Source: a virus
Lineage: Duplodnaviria > Heunggongvirae > Uroviricota > Caudoviricetes
Reading direction: 5' to 3' (one strand)
IMG/VR virus record: IMGVR_UViG_2603880148_000005
Location: 1-13,700 of that record
DNA length: 13,700 nucleotides
Below the pieces are notes generated by a model. It did no database searches. It was not told the DNA's origin and saw nothing but the letters and a program-made list of their open reading frames with translations. This document shows, piece after piece, positions 453 through 13,700 of the stretch; within the stretch, counting starts at the first letter, position 1; each line of letters begins with the position of its first letter. The position numbers and the translations under genes are program-made.

Positions 453-528
453 TGGTGGCCCTTGCTGGATTTGAACCAGCGACCTGGCGATTATGAGTCG
501 CTCGCTCTCACCACTGAGCTAAAGGGCC
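453..528 (-). tRNA. tRNA with CAU anticodon (elongator Met or lysidine-type Ile2; resembles E. coli ileX/ileY as I recall them), 76 nt, CCA encoded
   Basis: Reverse complement GGCCCTTTAGCTCAGTGGTGAGAGCGAGCGACTCATAATCGCCAGGTCGCTGGTTCAAATCCAGCAAGGGCCACCA folds as a cloverleaf: acceptor GGCCCTT/AAGGGCC, D stem GCTC/GAGC, anticodon stem GCGA/TCGC with loop CTCATAA, T stem GCTGG/CCAGC with TTCAAAT loop, discriminator A. Confidence 0.85.
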
Positions 529-577: not shown

Positions 578-1627
578 TCAAACGATTAAATCCTGAACTT
601 CCCTGACTGTCTGCTCAAAACGTCCGGTCTCCAGTTCAACGCCAATCGCACGACGCCCCAGTGCCATCGCCGCTTTTACCGTTGAACCCGACCCCATGAA
701 AAAATCTGCAACCAGGTCACCCGGACGACTGCTTGCGCTGATTATCTGCTGCAGCATTTCTGCCGGTTTTTCGCACGGATGTTTCCCGGGATAGAACTGC
801 ACCGGTTTATGTGTCCACACATCCGTGTACGGCACCTGCGCCGTCACACCAAAATACCGCCGCAGATGCTTATATTCACTCTGCAGCTCCACATACTGCC
901 GGTTCAGTGACGTATACGTATCCACCAGCTGGTGGTGGGGCTTTTCCAGTTCACCGCGCTGATGTTTCTCTTCTGCCACCCGGGCAAACAGCGACTGTAA
1001 TTTCAGATAATCGCTTTCGTTCGGTAGCTGCCACTGACTGGCACTGAACCAGTGCGACACCATGTTTTTCTTTCCTGTGACATCTGCAATCTGTTTTGCC
1101 GTTATCCCCAGGGCCGCGCGCGCATCACGAAAGTAAGAAATCAGCGGGGCCATCACATGCTGTTTCAGTGCACTGCCCTTCGCCGCATACCCGGCATCTT
1201 TCGGACGATACGGCCCCTGATAATGTTCCGCGAACAGAATGCGCTCTGTGGCGGGGAAATACGCCCGCAGGCTTTCCTTGTTGCATCCGTTCCAGCGTCC
1301 GGACGGCTTCGCCCAGATAATATGGTTCAGCACACTGAAGCGTTCACGCATCATGATTTCGATATCAGATGCCAGGCGATGACCACAGAACAGGTAAAGA
1401 CTTCCGGCAGGTTTCAGCACCCGCCAGAACTGCGCCAGACACTGGTCCAGCCACTTCAGGTAATCATCGTCGCCCTTCCACTGGTTATCCCAGCCTTCAG
1501 GCTTCACTTTAAAGTACGGCGGGTCCGTGACTATCAGGTCAACAGAATTTTCGGGTAACGACCGGATAAATTCCAGGCAGTCGGCGTTGATTAACTCACA
1601 ACTGGATATTTTTACAGTATTAAGCAT
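578..1627 (-). CDS. DNA N6-adenine (or N4-cytosine) methyltransferase, beta-class, orphan
   Basis: 349 aa. DPPY catalytic motif near the N-terminus (LIVTDPPYF) and the SAM-binding motif FFMGSGST near the C-terminus; this motif order defines beta-class amino-methyltransferases. No nuclease partner adjacent. Confidence 0.85.
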   Translation of the reverse strand: MLNTVKISSCELINADCLEFIRSLPENSVDLIVTDPPYFKVKPEGWDNQWKGDDDYLKWLDQCLAQFWRVLKPAGSLYLFCGHRLASDIEIMMRERFSVLNHIIWAKPSGRWNGCNKESLRAYFPATERILFAEHYQGPYRPKDAGYAAKGSALKQHVMAPLISYFRDARAALGITAKQIADVTGKKNMVSHWFSASQWQLPNESDYLKLQSLFARVAEEKHQRGELEKPHHQLVDTYTSLNRQYVELQSEYKHLRRYFGVTAQVPYTDVWTHKPVQFYPGKHPCEKPAEMLQQIISASSRPGDLVADFFMGSGSTVKAAMALGRRAIGVELETGRFEQTVREVQDLIV

Positions 1628-2094: not shown

Positions 2095-2119
2095 CATAAA
2101 AAACCCGCCAGGCGGCGGG
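2095..2119 (-). terminator. tR'-like rho-independent terminator immediately downstream of pR'
   Basis: Stem CCCGCC (2104-2109) / GGCGGG (2114-2119), loop AGGC, A6 run at 2098-2103; on the minus strand this is a GC hairpin followed by TTTTTTAT. Confidence 0.6.
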
Positions 2120-2154
2120 GTGTAAAAAATCTTCTAACGTCAGGCATAAAACGC

Positions 2155-2196
2155 CCATCGTTAGGGCAAATTTACCACAGATTCGGGAAAAATCAA
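2155..2196 (-). promoter_or_regulatory. Late promoter pR' with qut-like pause element (lambda-type)
   Basis: Minus strand reads TTGATT-N16-TAAATTTGCCCTAACGATGGG. The -10 TAAATT and the downstream AACGATGGG match lambda pR' (GGTAAATTTGACTCAACGATGGG, as I recall it) at about 20 of 23 positions. -35 at plus 2191-2196, -10 at 2169-2174, predicted start near 2161. Confidence 0.6.
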
Positions 2197-2201
2197 CAAC
2201 A

Positions 2202-3023
2202 CTATCGCGTTACCCTCTTTAACTGCCGCTCCGCCCATGCCTCTTCAATGTCAAACCGAACCACCAACGTATCGTAAAAGCGTTTCACTGATTTTTTCCA
2301 CGTATCAAGCGTGATAGCACTCGTCACTTTGCATATGGCATTAAATGCCTCCGTTGATGGCAGCCTTTCACAGCCACGACCACCACAACGCTGGCAATCT
2401 CTGATAACAGGCATACCACGTTTTACCGACTCTTCACGATGAATGGCGACACCACGCCCACGGCAATCCTTACAGGCGGTGGAAACCTCACCCTTTCCGC
2501 CACACTCCGGACAGGCAACTTTTACCACCTCCCTGACTTTTTTCCATTCTTCCCAGTAAGACGGATACACGCCTTTTGTGCACTTTGCCCACACTGGTGG
2601 CTTACCATCCGGATACTGGATCTTGTTTGTAAAAACCTCGCTTTCAATAAATTTTTTTCCGTGACAGCAGGGGCACTGTTTTTTGCTCGCCGCGCTACGG
2701 GCATAATCTTCAAACGCATACGAAGCCATAATGCGCATCACTACCGGTTTTATTTCTGCCGGAAGTTTTCTCAACGCCGCCACACGATCGCACCGACTGA
2801 GTGCATAATCTGCCAGTAATTCTGTTGCCCGCGCCCTGTCATTCATACTGATGCCCATTTTCCCCAGGAACGCAGAAAACCCCATCTCAGCCCGATTCTG
2901 TGTCATGCCCTGCGCGGCCATCACATCAGTGATACTCAGCGCATCTTTTGACGTTGAGGCCGATGCATCGGTCAGGCCAGGGGATTTTGGGGAGTAGTAT
3001 TTCGGTAAATCTTCCAGTTTCAT
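2202..3023 (-). CDS. Late antiterminator, lambda Q family, with an expanded cysteine-rich insertion
   Basis: 273 aa. N-terminus MKLEDLPKYYSPKSPGLTDASASTSKDALSITDVMAAQGM and C-terminus TWKKSVKRFYDTLVVRFDIEEAWAERQLKRVTR align with lambda Q as I recall it (MRLESVAKFHSPKSP...GTDVMAAMGM / ...TWSRTVKPLYDALVV...NAVTR). Sits directly upstream of the pR'/qut module. Start ATG overlaps the rusA stop (ATGA). Confidence 0.85.
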   Translation of the reverse strand: MKLEDLPKYYSPKSPGLTDASASTSKDALSITDVMAAQGMTQNRAEMGFSAFLGKMGISMNDRARATELLADYALSRCDRVAALRKLPAEIKPVVMRIMASYAFEDYARSAASKKQCPCCHGKKFIESEVFTNKIQYPDGKPPVWAKCTKGVYPSYWEEWKKVREVVKVACPECGGKGEVSTACKDCRGRGVAIHREESVKRGMPVIRDCQRCGGRGCERLPSTEAFNAICKVTSAITLDTWKKSVKRFYDTLVVRFDIEEAWAERQLKRVTR

Positions 3024-3394
3024 TTTTTGACCTGCTCTTCATGCATTATGGGGTAAATCTTCACCCCCATACGTCCACCAGATACTGGCTGACCACGAAC
3101 GATATTGATTTCATCAAACTGCTCATCGTCCATTAACACTCCCGCATGCGTCAGCGCATCCAGCGGTGCTTTCAGGATATTGTCCAGGTCGCGACGACGC
3201 TTATCCGGTGGCTCTGCAATCACCTTTATCGCCAGCCTTCCGGACAGGCTTAATTTCAGCCGCTGCTGGCGAACAATAAGCGCCACAGCCCGGCGATAAC
3301 GCTTTCCCTCCTCCGAGATAAAATATGTGCTGCCACGGCGTCGCCAGTAAGTGTTCACCGTCGGCGGGTAAGGTAAAACCAAATCTATGAGCAT
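3020..3394 (-). CDS. rusA: Holliday junction resolvase RusA
   Basis: 124 aa with PDKRRRDLDNILKAPLDALTHAGVLMDDEQ, matching the RusA catalytic region (E. coli RusA has [28 protein letters not shown] as I recall). SD AGAGGTGA precedes the ATG at 3394. Confidence 0.9.
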   Translation of the reverse strand: MLIDLVLPYPPTVNTYWRRRGSTYFISEEGKRYRRAVALIVRQQRLKLSLSGRLAIKVIAEPPDKRRRDLDNILKAPLDALTHAGVLMDDEQFDEINIVRGQPVSGGRMGVKIYPIMHEEQVKK

Positions 3395-3406
3395 CAGTCA
3401 CCTCTT

Positions 3407-4453
3407 TTACCCAAGCACGCCAGTTGCAAAGGCGTGATCAAGAAAACGAAAAATTAAATCAACCTGAGAACCATGCTTTTCTTCGAACGCCAGAGGATCC
3501 GCATGAAGCTCGTTGTGATGCTCCCGACACAGCGGTAGCGTGAAAATATCGTGAGATTTTGTCCCCATTCCGCCCTGACCATGACCAATCAGGTGATGGG
3601 GATCGTCGGCTGGCTTACCACAACACGCACACGGCTGTGTCTTCACCCAGCGTGTGTATTTCTCGTTAACCCAGCGGCGACGTTTAGGTCGTTTCATGAA
3701 AGATTCCGGAGACTCAGGATCAACGGCAATGCTGACCACCGTCTCTTCCTGTGGCGGGTTTTGCTGGTGGGCGTGAGGCAGCGGCGCAAGATTTTTTGTG
3801 CGCTGCTTCAGTATGCTGGTGGCGGTCTGCTCTCCCGGTACGATGTCGCTTTCACGGTACATTGAGCGGATTTTTTCCGCACGCAACCCCAGCGAACGAC
3901 GTAATACCGCTTCCGGTAGCGCGTCCGCCACCTGATTGCGGACCGCCCACCAGGATAATTCAGCCAGCGATAATTCCCGTTCCTGCGAGCCATTCATTGC
4001 ATGGCGTATGACGTCAATCATCCATGCAGACAGGTTTTGGTGAGCAAGTTGCCCGAGTGATTCGGAGGTCTGGTCGCGCAGCTGGTTGTCGCAGTGCCAG
4101 CACAACACCATTGCGCCGGTACCATAACGGTGAATGACGGTTTCACTGTGGTGATAATCGCCGTGTGGCCACTGGCAGGATTTAACATGGCGCAGTAACC
4201 AGTCAGACAATGCGCCAGCGCCACCAGCAGCACGAATCACTCGTTCGTCGCTGAAAAATGGCAGTAATGATTTATCCTCCGCCAGCGGCTGGCGAACGAC
4301 AGGAACGACCCCGGACGGCAGATTACGCATGCTTTTCGGTTCCGGCTCCACCAGTACCCGGGTATTGTGGAATACCGGCATGGATTCACGGCCCGGCTTA
4401 ACGATCACCAGCCCGAGTTCCGGTACCAGAACAGGTCGAAGTAATACCCGCAC
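3407..4453 (-). CDS. YdfU-like prophage protein (DUF968-type, from memory) with C-terminal HNH/zinc-finger-like motif
   Basis: 348 aa, GTG start at 4453 preceded by GGAGG. C-terminus CACCGKPADDPHHLIGHGQGGMGTKSHDIFTLPLCREHHNELH has a Cys/His pattern like HNH nucleases. Same size and same position (just upstream of Q) as ydfU in the K-12 Qin prophage; that assignment is a recollection. Confidence 0.65.
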   Translation of the reverse strand: MRVLLRPVLVPELGLVIVKPGRESMPVFHNTRVLVEPEPKSMRNLPSGVVPVVRQPLAEDKSLLPFFSDERVIRAAGGAGALSDWLLRHVKSCQWPHGDYHHSETVIHRYGTGAMVLCWHCDNQLRDQTSESLGQLAHQNLSAWMIDVIRHAMNGSQERELSLAELSWWAVRNQVADALPEAVLRRSLGLRAEKIRSMYRESDIVPGEQTATSILKQRTKNLAPLPHAHQQNPPQEETVVSIAVDPESPESFMKRPKRRRWVNEKYTRWVKTQPCACCGKPADDPHHLIGHGQGGMGTKSHDIFTLPLCREHHNELHADPLAFEEKHGSQVDLIFRFLDHAFATGVLG

Positions 4454-4454
4454 G

Positions 4455-4733
4455 TTACCTCCAGATGCGTTGCTGGAATGTGCGGGACGGACGCGGTGGG
4501 CGTTCGGAATAAGGGAGTCTGACGTAGATTATCCAGTGACGATAATCGAGGGTGAGGGCTTTCCTAAACTCATATCCACGTCTGCGGTAGTTATGAATCA
4601 GCCATTCGGCCTGTTCTTCAGTGCATGGGGGATGCTGGAACCAGTCAGATTTGAAAGTGCGGGAACGCCGCCCGTGCCTGCTGGCAAAGACGGCAGAATC
4701 ATCAGAATTGTGTAATTTGGTATCGTGCGCCAT
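4455..4733 (-). CDS. Hypothetical protein (92 aa from the internal ATG)
   Basis: ORF track 4455..4814 starts at a TTG that lies inside the terminator T-tract, so I trimmed to the only in-frame ATG (4733-4731), which has only a weak SD. Stop abuts the next gene's start. No family recognised. Confidence 0.4.
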   Translation of the reverse strand: MAHDTKLHNSDDSAVFASRHGRRSRTFKSDWFQHPPCTEEQAEWLIHNYRRRGYEFRKALTLDYRHWIIYVRLPYSERPPRPSRTFQQRIWR

Positions 4734-4802
4734 CGGTTGTCTCTGCTGGCGCAGCAGGTGCCAGTTGTTCAGGCTGGCGTGTGGATTGTAAACCAGAATG
4801 CC

Positions 4803-4831
4803 AGGAAAAAACAAAACCCGCGAAGCGGGTT
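4803..4831 (-). terminator. Rho-independent terminator after the nuclease gene
   Basis: Hairpin AACCCGC(gaa)GCGGGTT at 4815-4831; on the minus strand it is followed by TTGTTTTTTCC (reverse complement of 4801-4814). Confidence 0.6.
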
Positions 4832-4903
4832 AGTAAAAATGTACTGAAGTCAATGACGTGCCATCACAGTTAAAATATGACAGACTCTATTTACGTAGAG
4901 ATG

Positions 4904-5782
4904 TCAGACTGCAAGATCCAAGGGAAGATCAGAAATATCCTTTAATCTTTTACCATTAACCATCACGGAAAGCATGTCAGCTGCATCGCTGAGCCCCAGT
5001 ATTTCAACTGCTGATATAAGTTCATAAAGCGCAAAATGATACACGCAATCTATATCACCAGTACCAAGAGCAATAGACGCCAGACGACTTGGAGTAGGCT
5101 CAGCAGTAACAACCATTACATGAGGGAGATTTCCCTTACGGTTGCGAATAAGATTTAATGCCTCAGAACGAGCATTCTGGGCCCGGTCGCTTCTTATTGT
5201 CCATTTGCAGGAAATACTTGCGTGTAATATTGGTTTCCCACCATTCGAACTCCTGAGAGCTGACATGCGGGTAACAGAATCATCCACCAGTAATTCAGGA
5301 CTGTTGATAACTTGATCACATTCAGGTTCTCTTTCAACAATAATATCTGGTGAAATCGTATAATCACTCCCCAGTGCAGCAGCTAGCTGAGGATTACTTT
5401 TTGCAGCACTATCCAATGCTATAAGATGGGCATATTGTTCATATTTAGCTATCTCTAATCTGTTTCTACCAGAAACCTGATGTACATTCCATTTTCCAGG
5501 GCGTAAGTGGCTGAGTTTAAAAAAGGTTTTTTCTATAAACTCTGCGCAGATACTCTCAAACTGATTACCAGATGTTTGCCCTGCAACACGTTCACCAATC
5601 GTTTCAGCCTGCAAGAAGCGAGCAATTTCTCTTGCTATAGCTTTACTGTTTTTGTTACTGCTATCTGCGTTACTAACAACTCCGGCAGTATTAATTGTGA
5701 GCGTATTCAGTAACAATTGGGCATGAAACTCCTTTCTGGCTTCAGCAAAACCAACTATGCTGTCAACCAAATCTCCATTCAT
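4904..5782 (-). CDS. Putative Type II restriction endonuclease (PD-(D/E)xK fold, PD...SxK...E variant), partner of the upstream C5-methyltransferase
   Basis: ORF track 4904..5917 overlaps the methyltransferase, so I trimmed to ATG 5782-5780, which is 13 nt after the methyltransferase stop and preceded by AAGGAA. Motifs ISPDIIVERE then ISCKWT then E about 17 residues on, resembling the Cfr10I/NgoMIV/SsoII-type active site. Family call is motif-level only. Confidence 0.5.
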   Translation of the reverse strand: MNGDLVDSIVGFAEARKEFHAQLLLNTLTINTAGVVSNADSSNKNSKAIAREIARFLQAETIGERVAGQTSGNQFESICAEFIEKTFFKLSHLRPGKWNVHQVSGRNRLEIAKYEQYAHLIALDSAAKSNPQLAAALGSDYTISPDIIVEREPECDQVINSPELLVDDSVTRMSALRSSNGGKPILHASISCKWTIRSDRAQNARSEALNLIRNRKGNLPHVMVVTAEPTPSRLASIALGTGDIDCVYHFALYELISAVEILGLSDAADMLSVMVNGKRLKDISDLPLDLAV

Positions 5783-5795
5783 TTCTGGATTTCCT

Positions 5796-6920
5796 TCAGG
5801 CTGCTTGACTATTCTTACTGATGTTATTCTTATACCGTCCCTGCAAAACTCCATACACATATTGTGCGATTTTTGCCGCAAATAGCGGTGGAACAGCATT
5901 CCCGATCTGCTTTGCAATCTCAGTTTTTGAACCGGTAAAAATGAAATTATCAGGAAAAGACATTAATCTCGCTGCCTCACGATGAGTTATTGGCCGATCC
6001 TCTTCCGGATGTAAATATCGCCCTTTCTCCGGTTTGAAAAACTCAGTACGAATCGTTACTGAAGGTCTGTCCCACCACAGACGTCCAAACAAATCGGTCC
6101 CTCCAGATTTCTTTTTTAGCCAGCACGCCGGGGTTATATCAGGTCTTTTTTTCTGTAAATCGAAACGGTTACCTCCTGGTGGAACCGCTTTATATCGCTC
6201 CAAAGAAACAGGTGTGGGATTACGCCCAAAATGTAAGTTCAGCGGAGGAAGTTCATTACGAATATCAGTTCCAACAGGAGCAGGTAAGTCACCAATTGCA
6301 TCACGCGTACAGACCCATTCAGGCAAAGCGACATCCTTATCAGGGGAACGATGCGTTGGTGCTGGCGGGAACGCCGGAATACTATGCACATCGAAGAGTT
6401 CTCGTTTGATACCGATTGCTATCGTTCGTTTTCTTGTCTGAGGTACTCCATAGTCAGCAGTATTCAACACCATTGGATTAAGCAGAATAAAGCCCATGGA
6501 TTTCGCTCTAAACGTAATGTCCGCAAACTCATCGCTTATCAGCAATCCGGGGACATTTTCCATGACGAACATACAAGCCCTTGAACGCTCAATGACATCC
6601 ATATAAGGCTCCCACAATGCTCTTCGGTGATCACCATAACGATTCTTATTTAATAAACTGAATCCCTGACACGGGGGGCCACCTATGACCACATCAGCCT
6701 CAGGAACAGTATTGCTGGATGCCCACTCCTCAATATTTGCCTGAACTCCATGCAAACCAAAATTGGCATTGTAGGTATTTATAGCTGCAGCATTATTATC
6801 AATAGCAAGGATACTTTCAAAGTAGTCAGACATCTCTCCATGAAGAAAACCATAAGATAATCCACCTGCCCCACAAAAGAGGTCTATCACTCTGAATTTA
6901 TTTAATTCTTTCATCCGCAT
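5796..6920 (-). CDS. DNA cytosine-5 methyltransferase
   Basis: 374 aa with the canonical C5-MTase motifs in order: FCGAGG (I), GGPPCQGFS (IV, catalytic Cys), ENV (VI), QTRKR (VIII), GNAVPP (X). Confidence 0.9.
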   Translation of the reverse strand: MRMKELNKFRVIDLFCGAGGLSYGFLHGEMSDYFESILAIDNNAAAINTYNANFGLHGVQANIEEWASSNTVPEADVVIGGPPCQGFSLLNKNRYGDHRRALWEPYMDVIERSRACMFVMENVPGLLISDEFADITFRAKSMGFILLNPMVLNTADYGVPQTRKRTIAIGIKRELFDVHSIPAFPPAPTHRSPDKDVALPEWVCTRDAIGDLPAPVGTDIRNELPPLNLHFGRNPTPVSLERYKAVPPGGNRFDLQKKRPDITPACWLKKKSGGTDLFGRLWWDRPSVTIRTEFFKPEKGRYLHPEEDRPITHREAARLMSFPDNFIFTGSKTEIAKQIGNAVPPLFAAKIAQYVYGVLQGRYKNNISKNSQAA

Positions 6921-7003
6921 CCATATGCCTCAGATTAATGTTGAGCGTCTTACAGGACGCGTAATGTTAACTGGGGCTTTCTCTATCTGCCTTTTGGTGT
7001 TCA

Positions 7004-7028
7004 TGCCTGAGGCAGACAGCCTCAGGCA
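7004..7028. repeat. Perfect 10-bp-stem inverted repeat in the QueH-like/methyltransferase intergenic region
   Basis: TGCCTGAGGC (7004-7013), loop AGACA, GCCTCAGGCA (7019-7028). No T-tract on either side, so not a canonical intrinsic terminator. Confidence 0.5.
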
Positions 7029-7098
7029 CCCGCAGCAATTCTACTTAACTCACGTCACCTCGCCAATATGAAATCAATCAGAAAGGTGATCCATAAAA

Positions 7099-13303: not shown

Positions 13304-13700
13304 TGAACCGCCCCGGGTTTCCTGGAGAGTGTTTTATCTGTGAACTCAGGCTGCCAGATCATCGTTTCCGATGGAAGCATAATAAGCTTTTTCTGCTTCT
13401 GCCGGAGGAGTATGGCCCAGCCTTCCCAGCAATCGTCGATTGTTATACCAGTCCACCCACGTTAGTGTGGCCAGTTCCACTTCTGCACGGTTTTTCCAGC
13501 TCTTACGGTGTATTACCTCCGCTTTGTAAAGACCATTGATGCTCTCAGCCATCGCGTTGTCATACGAGTCGCCTGTACTCCCTGTTGATGCCAGTAATCC
13601 GGCTTCTTTTAGTCGCTCCGTATAGGCCAGTGACACATACTGAGAGCCTTTATCGCTGTGATGGATGGTGCCAGACGGACGACGGGCCCACAACGCCTGC
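13304..13700 (-). mobile_element. IS3-family insertion sequence (IS629/IS1203-like by terminal repeat), end portion; continues beyond the window
   Basis: Terminal sequence TGAACCGCCCCGGGTTTCCTGGAGAG starting at 13304 resembles the IS629 inverted repeat as I recall it (TGAACCGCCCCGGG...). Encloses the transposase fragment below. Confidence 0.6.
13346..13700 (-). CDS. IS3-family transposase OrfB, C-terminal fragment (N-terminus outside window)
   Basis: Contains HSDKGSQY (second catalytic Asp region of the DDE motif) and DSYDNAMAESINGLYKAEVIHR. The reading frame is open to the window edge, so the ORF-track M at 13693 is not the real start. Confidence 0.8.
   Translation of the reverse strand, partial: QALWARRPSGTIHHSDKGSQYVSLAYTERLKEAGLLASTGSTGDSYDNAMAESINGLYKAEVIHRKSWKNRAEVELATLTWVDWYNNRRLLGRLGHTPPAEAEKAYYASIGNDDLAA

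What the first reader, a model, noticed from the sequence alone, without database searches (positions are those of the whole stretch)
4803..7028. Low-GC-looking two-gene island in the nin region: C5-methyltransferase plus PD-(D/E)xK nuclease with its own terminator
A textbook C5-MTase (all motifs present) is followed 13 nt later by a 292-aa protein with a PD...SxK...E pattern typical of one branch of Type II restriction endonucleases. The pair is bracketed by a perfect 10-bp hairpin upstream and an intrinsic terminator downstream, and by eye it is AT-richer than the flanking phage genes (not computed), as expected for a horizontally acquired defence moron. Specificity cannot be read from sequence, and the nuclease assignment rests on motifs only, so it could be a different kind of methylation-linked nuclease.
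Basis: partly seen in the sequence, partly recalled or inferred. Interest (0 to 1): 0.6.

Follow-up and report, generated by a model that had tools for sequence, protein, structure and literature searches.

The report
Prophage NgoMIV-type restriction-modification cassette in hok remnant
This is an ordinary restriction-modification gene pair predicted to target GCCGGC, already labelled as such in public E. coli genomes, and its one unusual feature is that it replaced the toxin gene of a small hok/sok "addiction" locus in a lambda-like prophage and kept that locus's promoter, leader and terminator.

Summary
On the minus strand, a 374-aa C5 cytosine methyltransferase (6920-5796) is followed 13 nt later by a 292-aa nuclease (5782-4904). 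Both genes are markedly GC-poor (GC3 0.30-0.37, against 0.47-0.62 in neighbouring genes).

The nuclease is an NgoMIV-family Type II enzyme. It is 66% identical to the crystallised NgoMIV, and all catalytic and base-contact residues checked are conserved. It should therefore cut G^CCGGC.

The methyltransferase is not the NgoMIV-type partner (about 25% identity). Its clade has a nearly invariant target-recognition region and pairs elsewhere with NgoMIV-type, NaeI-type and uncharacterised HNH nucleases. NgoMIV and NaeI both cut GCCGGC, so GCCGGC methylation is inferred.

The "bracketing" hairpin and terminator do not belong to the island. They are the 5' leader and 3' terminator of a resident hok/sok type I toxin-antitoxin locus. 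The cassette (about 4833-6926) replaced the mok/hok coding body of that locus, and the methyltransferase start codon sits where the mok start codon would be.

RefSeq already annotates both genes, and 60 of 5,426 complete E. coli genomes carry the pair. This is a new member of a known kind with a neat insertion context. Interest is low to moderate.

The parts
7038..7066 (-). Sigma-70-like promoter (TTGGCG-17-TAGAAT), inferred to be the hok promoter. It would place the transcript start near 7031.
   Evidence: Promoter scan. Both hexamers are identical in phage Evi, which has an intact hok locus (alignment A1). The Rfam sok/hok-leader model begins at 7031.
6927..7031 (-). Remnant of the hok mRNA 5' leader (Rfam RF01794 model positions 1-88).
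   Evidence: Rfam hit 7031-6851, 61 bits, E 9e-12, convincing only as far as 6927. The full 113.5-bit hit in Evi runs into the hok ATG. Homology to Evi ends at 6927. RNA fold z-score -2.95.
4833..6926 (-). The acquired GC-poor cassette (M, R and a 71-nt 3' tail). It replaces the mok/hok coding body.
   Evidence: Window-to-Evi homology is interrupted exactly over this stretch, where Evi carries 287 bp containing mok/hok. Three of 80 viral contigs with this leader have the identical junction and the terminator 2,095 nt downstream. The other 77 continue into mok.
5796..6920 (-). C5 cytosine DNA methyltransferase, 374 aa (or 372 aa from the ATG at 6914). Predicted to methylate GCCGGC.
   Evidence: PF00145 E 4e-54 and TIGR00675. 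All six canonical motifs are present. Its clade has a near-invariant target-recognition region and pairs with NgoMIV-, NaeI- and HNH-type nucleases. The ATG at 6920 lies 7 nt after GAGG, where mok's ATG lies 8 nt after it.
4904..5782 (-). NgoMIV-family Type II restriction endonuclease, 292 aa. Predicted to cut G^CCGGC.
   Evidence: PF09015 E 6e-127. PDB 1fiu/4abt E 1e-118, 65.8% identity over 281 aa. E70, P139-D140, S185-x-K187, E201, R191-S-D-R194, Q63, D34 and R227 are all conserved.
4805..4832 (-). Intrinsic terminator (AACCCGCTTCGCGGGTT plus T-run). It is inherited from the hok locus and is not part of the cassette.
   Evidence: Terminator scan. Homology to Evi resumes exactly at the stem. 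In 49 viral contigs with intact hok, the same terminator lies 250-300 nt after the leader.

Best explanation
**What it is.** This is a functional two-gene Type II restriction-modification (R-M) system carried as a moron by a lambdoid E. coli prophage.

- The nuclease is an NgoMIV isoschizomer that recognises GCCGGC and cuts after the first G. NgoMIV itself works as a tetramer (Type IIF). This is inferred from homology.
- The methyltransferase makes 5-methylcytosine within GCCGGC and so protects the host and prophage DNA. This is inferred from the partners of its clade.

**How it got there.** The cassette entered the nin region by replacing the mok/hok coding body of a resident hok/sok type I toxin-antitoxin locus. 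This is shown by sequence comparison.

**How it is probably expressed (inferred).**

- In lysogens, the operon is probably transcribed from the constitutive hok promoter.
- It would be translated from the mok ribosome-binding position, with M first and R second, and terminated at the hok terminator.
- During lytic growth it would also be read through from pR.

**What it probably does (inferred).** It should restrict incoming DNA that carries unmethylated GCCGGC. Like the Hok toxin it replaced, it should also penalise loss of the prophage, because R outlasts M (post-segregational killing).
For: **Nuclease (R)**
- PF09015 at E 6e-127, and PDB NgoMIV at E 1e-118 with 65.8% identity.
- The catalytic residues E70/D140/K187/E201, the CCGG-reading RSDR motif and the outer-base contact Q63 are conserved. 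Their roles are taken from PMC3413111 and PMC2532715.

**Methyltransferase (M)**
- PF00145 with all motifs.
- Homologues at 65-80% identity, with a nearly invariant target-recognition region, sit next to three kinds of nuclease. These are NgoMIV-type (Klebsiella and Cronobacter), NaeI-type (PDB 1ev7 at E 8e-35) and HNH.
- NgoMIV and NaeI both recognise GCCGGC.

**The pair has been kept together under selection**
- The E. coli, Klebsiella and Cronobacter copies are 78-84% identical at the protein level for both genes.
- Synonymous sites are saturated (pS of at least 0.74), while pN is only 0.11-0.15.
- Both genes carry functional product names in the RefSeq records listed; 60 of 5,426 complete E. 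coli genomes hold at least 80% of the 2.45-kb query.

**The hok scaffold**
- Rfam leader hit.
- Breakpoints against phage Evi.
- Evi encodes a canonical Hok and an in-frame Mok.
- 77 of 80 viral contigs with this leader continue into mok, and 3 of 80 carry the identical R-M junction.
- The promoter hexamers are conserved.

**Host sites.** The host DNA does contain GCCGGC sites, which would make R without M toxic.
Against: - No enzymatic or methylome data exist here. I found no paper on this system.
- M is only about 25% identical to the M genes that accompany NgoMIV-family nucleases in 73 of 80 other species. Cognate specificity therefore rests on partner association, not on orthology with M.NgoMIV.
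- Use of the hok promoter is inferred only from a 9/12 consensus match and conservation. The scan found no more promoter-like sites in the region than shuffled sequence gives.
- There is no controller protein and no recognisable regulator of the M-then-R timing.
- The Klebsiella and Cronobacter copies work without any hok leader, so the leader is not required for the system.
Confidence: 0.8

Rival explanations
1. One reading: a self-contained, horizontally acquired R-M moron that brought its own upstream hairpin and its own intrinsic terminator.
For: The hairpin and the terminator do flank the two genes, and the genes are GC-poor.
Against: Both elements lie in sequence shared, at 91% identity or higher, with phages that lack the cassette. 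They match the hok leader and the hok 3' end. DNA homology between the E. coli, Klebsiella and Cronobacter cassettes covers only the two coding sequences, window about 6902-4905. The Klebsiella copy has neither element.
Confidence: 0.05
2. The pair is mismatched or decaying. The methyltransferase is effectively an orphan, either with a different specificity or serving phage self-protection or epigenetic roles. The NgoMIV-like gene is inactive or attenuated.
For: M is not the M.NgoMIV type (about 25% identity). Relatives of this clade pair with other nucleases. No activity data exist.
Against: R keeps every catalytic and recognition residue checked. R shows a strongly purifying pattern (pN 0.11-0.14 with pS saturated) and diverges in parallel with M across three genera. 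The same M+R architecture occurs in Klebsiella and Cronobacter. An active GCCGGC nuclease without cognate methylation would be lethal, because the host has sites.
Confidence: 0.08
3. The system is active, but its selected role is prophage addiction or lytic-cycle function rather than defence of the lysogen. It would act as a like-for-like replacement of Hok, or be expressed mainly from pR read-through to methylate progeny and degrade naive host DNA.
For: It sits exactly where a post-segregational killer toxin was. It lies in the delayed-early nin transcription unit. Post-segregational killing by Type II R-M systems is established knowledge (for example the review PMC3874152, listed but not read here).
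Against: Nothing in the sequence separates this role from defence, and the two are not exclusive. The conserved constitutive-type promoter upstream argues for expression in lysogens.
Confidence: 0.3

Closest known systems
NgoMIV restriction-modification system of Neisseria gonorrhoeae (R.NgoMIV, PDB 1FIU/4ABT, G^CCGGC, Type IIF)
   Same: The nuclease is 65.8% identical over 281 aa. It has an identical PD...SxK...E active site, the RSDR CCGG-reading motif and the outer G:C contact residues. Gene order is M then R on one strand, as in 73 of 80 family loci.
   Different: The methyltransferase is a different lineage: 372-374 aa and about 25% identical to the roughly 313-aa M genes that accompany NgoMIV-family nucleases elsewhere. 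The system is prophage-borne, has GC3 of 0.30-0.37, and is embedded in a hok scaffold.
NaeI restriction-modification system (GCC^GGC, Type IIE; PDB 1EV7)
   Same: A methyltransferase 65% identical to this one, with the same target-recognition region, sits next to a NaeI-family nuclease. The predicted recognition sequence is the same.
   Different: The nuclease here is not NaeI-like. I did not compare this M with the actual M.NaeI sequence. In the NaeI-type locus the genes are convergent, whereas here they are tandem.
hok/sok (mok-hok-sok) type I toxin-antitoxin loci of E. coli prophages and plasmid R1
   Same: The promoter, the first roughly 105 nt of the hok mRNA leader (including the 5' hairpin and the SD before mok) and the 3' terminator are retained. 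They are 91% identical or more to intact loci.
   Different: There is no Hok/Mok ORF. The region that would carry the Sok promoter and target is replaced. The 3' fbi element that pairs with the 5' end is gone: predicted duplex -14.6 kcal/mol here, against -24.9 kcal/mol in Evi. This is a remnant used as a chassis, not a toxin-antitoxin system.
Prophage-borne Type II R-M morons in STEC lambdoid phages (for example the PstI-like system of the O104:H4 Stx2 phage; cited from my own knowledge)
   Same: A lambdoid prophage carries a complete Type II R-M system as accessory cargo.
   Different: Different enzyme families, specificity and insertion site. No sequenced phage record in the INPHARED collection carries this pair.

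Membership tests
NgoMIV/Cfr10I-type PD-(D/E)xK Type II endonucleases (CCGG family) | Full-length homology to NgoMIV (Pfam PF09015) or its solved structure | tested here: met
   PF09015 E 6e-127 over profile positions 1-275 of 275. PDB 1fiu E 1e-118.
NgoMIV/Cfr10I-type PD-(D/E)xK Type II endonucleases (CCGG family) | Active-site motif PDx46-53Kx13E plus the N-terminal Glu (NgoMIV E70, D140, K187, E201) | tested here: met
   All are conserved, at query positions E76, P145-D146, S191-C-K193 and E207. Motif definition from PMC3413111. Residue numbers from PMC2532715.
NgoMIV/Cfr10I-type PD-(D/E)xK Type II endonucleases (CCGG family) | RxDR motif that reads the CCGG core, plus residues that read the outer G:C pair (which sets GCCGGC rather than RCCGGY) | tested here: met
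   RSDR is identical and Q63 is conserved (PMC3413111). D34 and R227 are conserved, but their role is recalled from Deibert et al. 2000 and was not re-read here.
NgoMIV/Cfr10I-type PD-(D/E)xK Type II endonucleases (CCGG family) | Cleavage at G^CCGGC; tetrameric two-site (Type IIF) behaviour | not testable with these tools
   Needs enzyme assays.
C5 cytosine DNA methyltransferases | Conserved motifs I, IV (PCQ), VI (ENV), VIII (QxRxR), IX and X (GNAVP), with a variable target-recognition region between VIII and IX | tested here: met
   PF00145 E 4e-54. Motifs located at residues 15, 82, 121, 161, 314 and 340.
M.NgoMIV-type methyltransferase (the usual partner of NgoMIV-family nucleases) | Orthology with the M gene immediately upstream of NgoMIV-family R genes | tested here: not met
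   Only 23-34% identity, limited to shared C5-MTase motifs, to the upstream M in 73 of 80 loci.
GCCGGC-specific methyltransferase clade that also serves NaeI-type systems | Same target-recognition region as methyltransferases adjacent to nucleases of known GCCGGC specificity | tested here: met
   The target-recognition region is nearly invariant across 8 members. These pair with NgoMIV-type, NaeI-type (1ev7 at E 8e-35) and HNH nucleases. Methylation of GCCGGC itself is not testable here, and no comparison with the M.NaeI sequence was made.
Complete Type II R-M operon | Adjacent, intact, co-inherited M and R genes under purifying selection | tested here: met
   13-nt spacer. Parallel 78-84% protein identity in three genera, with pN 0.11-0.15 and pS saturated. 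Both genes carry functional product names in the listed RefSeq records.
hok/sok type I toxin-antitoxin locus | hok mRNA leader (Rfam RF01794) | tested here: inconclusive
   61 bits against a gathering score of 59. Only model positions 1-88 are truly matched, and the rest is forced onto the M coding sequence. This amounts to a truncated leader.
hok/sok type I toxin-antitoxin locus | Hok toxin ORF with overlapping mok; Sok promoter and target; 3' fbi element | tested here: not met
   tblastn with Hok finds nothing in the region. The fbi-tac pairing is lost. The mok-hok body is replaced. No plus-strand promoter-like site lies near 6850-6930.

The most novel reading that the evidence does not exclude
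The hok/sok chassis is not just an insertion scar. Its constitutive promoter, its structured leader (free of the 3' fbi lock and of Sok) and the mok translation-initiation site have been co-opted as the expression and timing control of an R-M system that lacks a controller protein. This would be a direct toxin-for-toxin swap, converting a type I toxin-antitoxin addiction locus into an R-M addiction and defence locus. Alongside this, the same GCCGGC methyltransferase clade has captured three unrelated nuclease folds: NgoMIV-type, NaeI-type and an uncharacterised HNH enzyme that would be a new GCCGGC restriction endonuclease family.
Probability: 0.3. Interest if true: 0.45.

Novelty: new member of a known kind. 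Interest (0 to 1): 0.3.

Why it matters
The practical value is limited.

- **Transformation and phage therapy.** The finding predicts that about 1% of completely sequenced E. coli genomes carry a GCCGGC restriction barrier and m5C mark. The listed carriers include many O157:H7 strains and O103, O111 and O39 strains. PacBio methylomes usually miss this mark. It is relevant to transformation, phage therapy and methylation-aware typing.
- **Evolution of selfish modules.** The locus is a clean natural example of two selfish "addiction" modules competing for the same site. An R-M cassette is spliced into a hok/sok locus so precisely that the methyltransferase starts where mok started.
- **Modular R-M evolution.** One methyltransferase lineage serves three unrelated nuclease folds.

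None of this overturns current understanding.

Tried and rejected
1. **GCCGGC avoidance as evidence of specificity.** The window has 0 sites against about 3.7 expected. However, the depletion is general in E. coli. A full prophage has 6 observed against 13.8 expected, and the chromosomal flanks have 1 against 5.8. Rejected as evidence.
2. **Orthology of M with M.NgoMIV-type partners.** Tested against 80 loci and not met.
3. **Is the hok leader a conserved companion of the cassette?** No. It is absent from the Klebsiella, Cronobacter, Yersinia and Edwardsiella loci.
4. **Sequenced phages carrying the pair.** None were found. There is one distant metagenomic hit for R and no hit for M.
5. **Literature.** Four searches (NgoMIV + prophage; GCCGGC + O157; O157 methylome; hok/sok + R-M) found nothing on this system.
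6. **Source genome.** No complete E. coli genome covers more than 79% of the window.
7. **Identity of the HNH partner.** The PDB, NCBIfam and PADLOC searches recognise only the HNH motif.
8. **The small ORF downstream of the cassette.** It is not homologous to the one in the Klebsiella prophage.
9. **Structure prediction.** Not run, because 66% identity to a crystal structure makes it unnecessary.
Full report
**1. What is in the sequence**

All genes in this part of the window run on the minus strand.

- ORF 6920-5796 encodes a 374-aa protein. RefSeq uses the ATG at 6914, giving 372 aa.
- Thirteen nucleotides after its stop codon, ORF 5782-4904 encodes a 292-aa protein.
- Upstream lies a perfect 10-bp hairpin, 7028-7004.
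- Downstream lies a consensus intrinsic terminator, 4831-4815, followed by a T-run.
- The two genes are GC-poor: 0.44 and 0.416, with GC3 of 0.365 and 0.30. Nine neighbouring genes have GC3 of 0.47-0.62.
- The neighbours define a lambdoid nin-type region. On one side are replication P, DUF1627, DUF977 and QueH. On the other are a small ORF, DUF968, RusA and antiterminator Q.

**2. The nuclease**

- It matches Pfam NgoMIV_restric end to end (E 6e-127).
- It matches the crystallised NgoMIV (PDB 1FIU/4ABT) at E 1e-118, with 65.8% identity over 281 residues.
- The family motif PDx46-53Kx13E and the RxDR stretch that reads the CCGG core are described in PMC3413111. PMC2532715 names the NgoMIV active-site residues Glu70, Asp140 and Lys187 and the RSDR segment.
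- In this protein E70, P139-D140, S185-C-K187, E201 and R191-S-D-R194 are all identical. So is Gln63, which contacts the outer C.
- D34 and R227 are also identical. I recall these from the original NgoMIV structure paper as outer G:C contacts, and I did not re-read that paper here.
- PMC3413111 stresses that NgoMIV is strictly GCCGGC-specific because of its network of contacts to the outer base pair.

The predicted specificity is therefore G^CCGGC.

**3. The methyltransferase**

It is a canonical C5 enzyme (PF00145 E 4e-54, TIGR00675, motifs I, IV, VI, VIII, IX and X). It is not the usual NgoMIV partner.

- In 80 loci from other species that encode an NgoMIV-family nuclease (59-78% identical to this one), 73 have a methyltransferase immediately upstream on the same strand. 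Those roughly 313-aa enzymes are only 23-34% identical to ours, which is motif-level similarity only.
- Close relatives of our methyltransferase (65-80% identity) are common in Enterobacterales and other Gammaproteobacteria.
- Their neighbouring nucleases fall into three unrelated families:
  - NgoMIV-type, in a Klebsiella michiganensis prophage and on a Cronobacter chromosome.
  - A 326-330-aa HNH protein, in Yersinia, Edwardsiella, Klebsiella pasteurii and Psychromonas.
  - A NaeI-family enzyme in a metagenome-assembled genome. The NaeI assignment was confirmed against PDB 1EV7 at E 8e-35.
- Across all eight methyltransferases, the region between motifs VIII and IX, which sets target specificity, is almost invariant (alignment A3).

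NgoMIV and NaeI are unrelated enzymes that both recognise GCCGGC. The simplest reading is that this whole methyltransferase clade methylates GCCGGC. This step is an inference and no methylation data were available.

**4. Is the pair a working unit?**

- The E. coli, Klebsiella and Cronobacter cassettes share DNA homology only across the two coding sequences (about 73% identity, window about 6902-4905).
- Both proteins have diverged in parallel (78-84% identity).
- Synonymous sites are saturated (pS of at least 0.74), while non-synonymous divergence is 0.11-0.15.
- This is the pattern expected for a pair that has been co-inherited for a long time under purifying selection on both genes.
- RefSeq annotates the two as "DNA cytosine methyltransferase" (WP_001427299.1) and "NgoMIV family type II restriction endonuclease" (WP_001012717.1).
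- The 2.45-kb region is at least 80% covered in 60 of 5,426 complete E. coli genomes, at 99.8-100% identity in the 25 records listed. The listed carriers include many O157:H7 strains and O103, O111 and O39 strains.
- The host DNA does carry GCCGGC sites, so an active nuclease without cognate methylation would not be tolerated.

**5. The flanking hairpin and terminator belong to a hok/sok locus**

- An Rfam scan places the family "sok" (RF01794, which models the hok mRNA leader) at 7031-6851 on the gene strand (61 bits, E 9e-12). Only model positions 1-88 (7031-6927) align convincingly.
- Phage Evi shares the backbone on both sides. Window 2098-4832 and 6927-7096 align to it at about 91%.
- Between those points Evi carries 287 bp instead of our 2,094 bp. 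Its Rfam hit is full length (113.5 bits) and runs into the start codon of an annotated MokW/Hok gene.
- Evi's ORF is a canonical Hok (MKQQKAMLIALIVICLTVIVTALVTRKDLCEVRIRTGQTEVAVFTAYEPEE) with an in-frame Mok extension.
- Upstream, homology breaks just after CTGAGGC at 6927. Downstream, it resumes exactly at the terminator stem, about 4832.
- Among 80 viral contigs that contain the end of this leader, 77 continue with GAGGC, 7-8 nt, then ATG(mok). In 49 of them the same terminator follows 250-300 nt later.
- The remaining three contigs have our exact junction, with the terminator 2,095 nt away. This points to a single replacement event that has since spread with the prophage.
- In the window the in-frame ATG at 6920 lies 7 nt after GAGG. 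The commonest intact variant reads GAGGCCATATCTATG, against GAGGCATATGGATG here. The methyltransferase therefore starts essentially at the mok start position.
- The promoter-like TTGGCG-17-TAGAAT (7066-7038) is conserved with Evi and would start transcription at about 7031, where the Rfam model begins.
- Three elements are lost: the Hok/Mok ORF, the segment that would hold the Sok promoter and target, and the 3' fbi element that pairs with the 5' end. The predicted 5'-3' duplex is -24.9 kcal/mol in Evi and -14.6 kcal/mol here.
- The perfect 10-bp hairpin is thus the 5' hairpin of the hok leader. From my own knowledge of the R1 hok literature, the 5' end of hok mRNA forms metastable and tac-stem hairpins.
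- The Klebsiella, Cronobacter, Yersinia and Edwardsiella loci have no such leader. The hok chassis is therefore specific to the E. coli prophage lineage.

**6. How it most likely works**

*Shown by the sequence and comparisons*
- An intact NgoMIV-type nuclease and an intact C5 methyltransferase, tandem with M first.
- They sit between a hok promoter and leader and a hok terminator, in the nin region of a lambdoid prophage.

*Inferred*
- In lysogens the operon is transcribed from the hok promoter, which in hok loci is constitutive.
- M is translated from the mok initiation site and R from its own AAGGA-type site 13 nt after the M stop.
- M methylates GCCGGC on the host and prophage DNA. R cleaves incoming unmethylated GCCGGC DNA.
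- Loss of the prophage would be penalised, because residual R outlasts M. This is the same selfish logic as the Hok toxin it replaced.
- During lytic growth, antiterminated pR transcription should read through the cassette, so progeny DNA would be methylated.
- No controller protein or N-terminal DNA-binding extension on M is present. Motif I begins at residue 15. How the delay of R relative to M is achieved remains open.

**7. Comparison with what is known, and novelty**

- The nuclease is a member of the NgoMIV family, and all sequence-level defining features are met.
- The methyltransferase is a member of the C5 family. It is not of the M.NgoMIV lineage. It belongs to a clade that also serves NaeI-type and HNH-type nucleases.
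- The hok/sok locus is a remnant, not a member, because its defining toxin and antisense parts are absent.
- Prophage-borne Type II R-M systems, post-segregational killing by R-M systems and shuffling of M and R genes are all established.
- The genes are already annotated at family level in RefSeq. I found no paper on this particular system and no sequenced phage isolate carrying it.
- The verdict is a new, uncharacterised member of a known kind. It comes with a tidy and apparently unreported insertion context (R-M replacing Hok inside its own transcription unit) and a useful specificity prediction.

**8. Caveats**

- Specificity, activity, promoter use and start-codon choice are all predictions.
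- The promoter scan found no more promoter-like sites than shuffled sequence gives, so the promoter call rests on conservation and position.
- The absence of GCCGGC from the window is not evidence, because E. coli DNA in general under-represents the site.

Noticed in passing
L086 5100-6092; L087 5088-6068; L090 4088-5071; L091 4116-5102: A 326-330-aa protein with only a C-terminal HNH motif recognisable (McrA-like, E 7.5e-8 to PDB 6ghc). It sits directly downstream of 70-75%-identical homologues of this methyltransferase in Yersinia, Edwardsiella, Klebsiella and Psychromonas, abutting or overlapping the M gene's 3' end. By association it may be an uncharacterised HNH-type GCCGGC restriction endonuclease.
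   Followed up: partly
L083-L085 4001-6004, with DUF968 at 6697-7728: In a Klebsiella michiganensis prophage, the homologous M+R cassette also sits two genes upstream of a DUF968 gene in the nin region, but without any hok leader or terminator. The intervening small ORF is unrelated to the one in the window. The site upstream of DUF968 looks like a recurrent cargo slot.
   Followed up: partly
window 578-1627 (-): A second DNA methyltransferase in the same prophage, downstream of antiterminator Q. It is an N6/N4 type (PF01555, E 2e-44), and the match to the 221-position Pfam profile is spread over residues 29-340 of the 349-aa protein. It appears to be an orphan, and its specificity is unknown.
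   Followed up: no
window 453-528 (-): A tRNA gene with anticodon CAT (called Met; it could be an Ile2-type tRNA), just downstream of the Q/methylase region, as in Stx-type lambdoid phages.
   Followed up: no
window 7099-7785 (-): The prophage encodes an epoxyqueuosine reductase QueH (PF02677, E 1e-65) immediately upstream of the hok remnant. It is a tRNA-modification gene carried as phage cargo.
   Followed up: no
window 12006-12487 (+): A small ORF followed by a RelE/ParE-family toxin gene (12197-12487; annotated as such in strain JKHS016), beside the cI-like repressor. This would be another addiction module in the same prophage.
   Followed up: no
window 13346-13693 (-): A fragment of an IS3-family transposase (integrase-core-like sequence) at the window edge. 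The related prophage in JKHS016 also has an IS5 insertion between QueH and DUF977. The prophage lineage is decaying in several genomes: B-1109 has a deletion joining the region to tail genes.
   Followed up: no
window 6792-6820 (-): The best promoter-like match in the region (TTGAAA-17-AATAAT, 10/12) lies inside the 5' part of the methyltransferase gene. If active, it would give transcripts that encode R without full-length M. It is probably a chance match in AT-rich DNA.
   Followed up: no
L093 (E. coli JKHS016, 50 kb): GCCGGC is under-represented about 2- to 6-fold relative to a Markov expectation, in both prophage and chromosomal DNA of E. coli, regardless of the cassette.
   Followed up: partly
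window 3407-4453 (-): The DUF968 protein downstream of the cassette has a weak HNH-nuclease-like C-terminus (PF16784, E 1e-4, below the Pfam cut-off).
   Followed up: no
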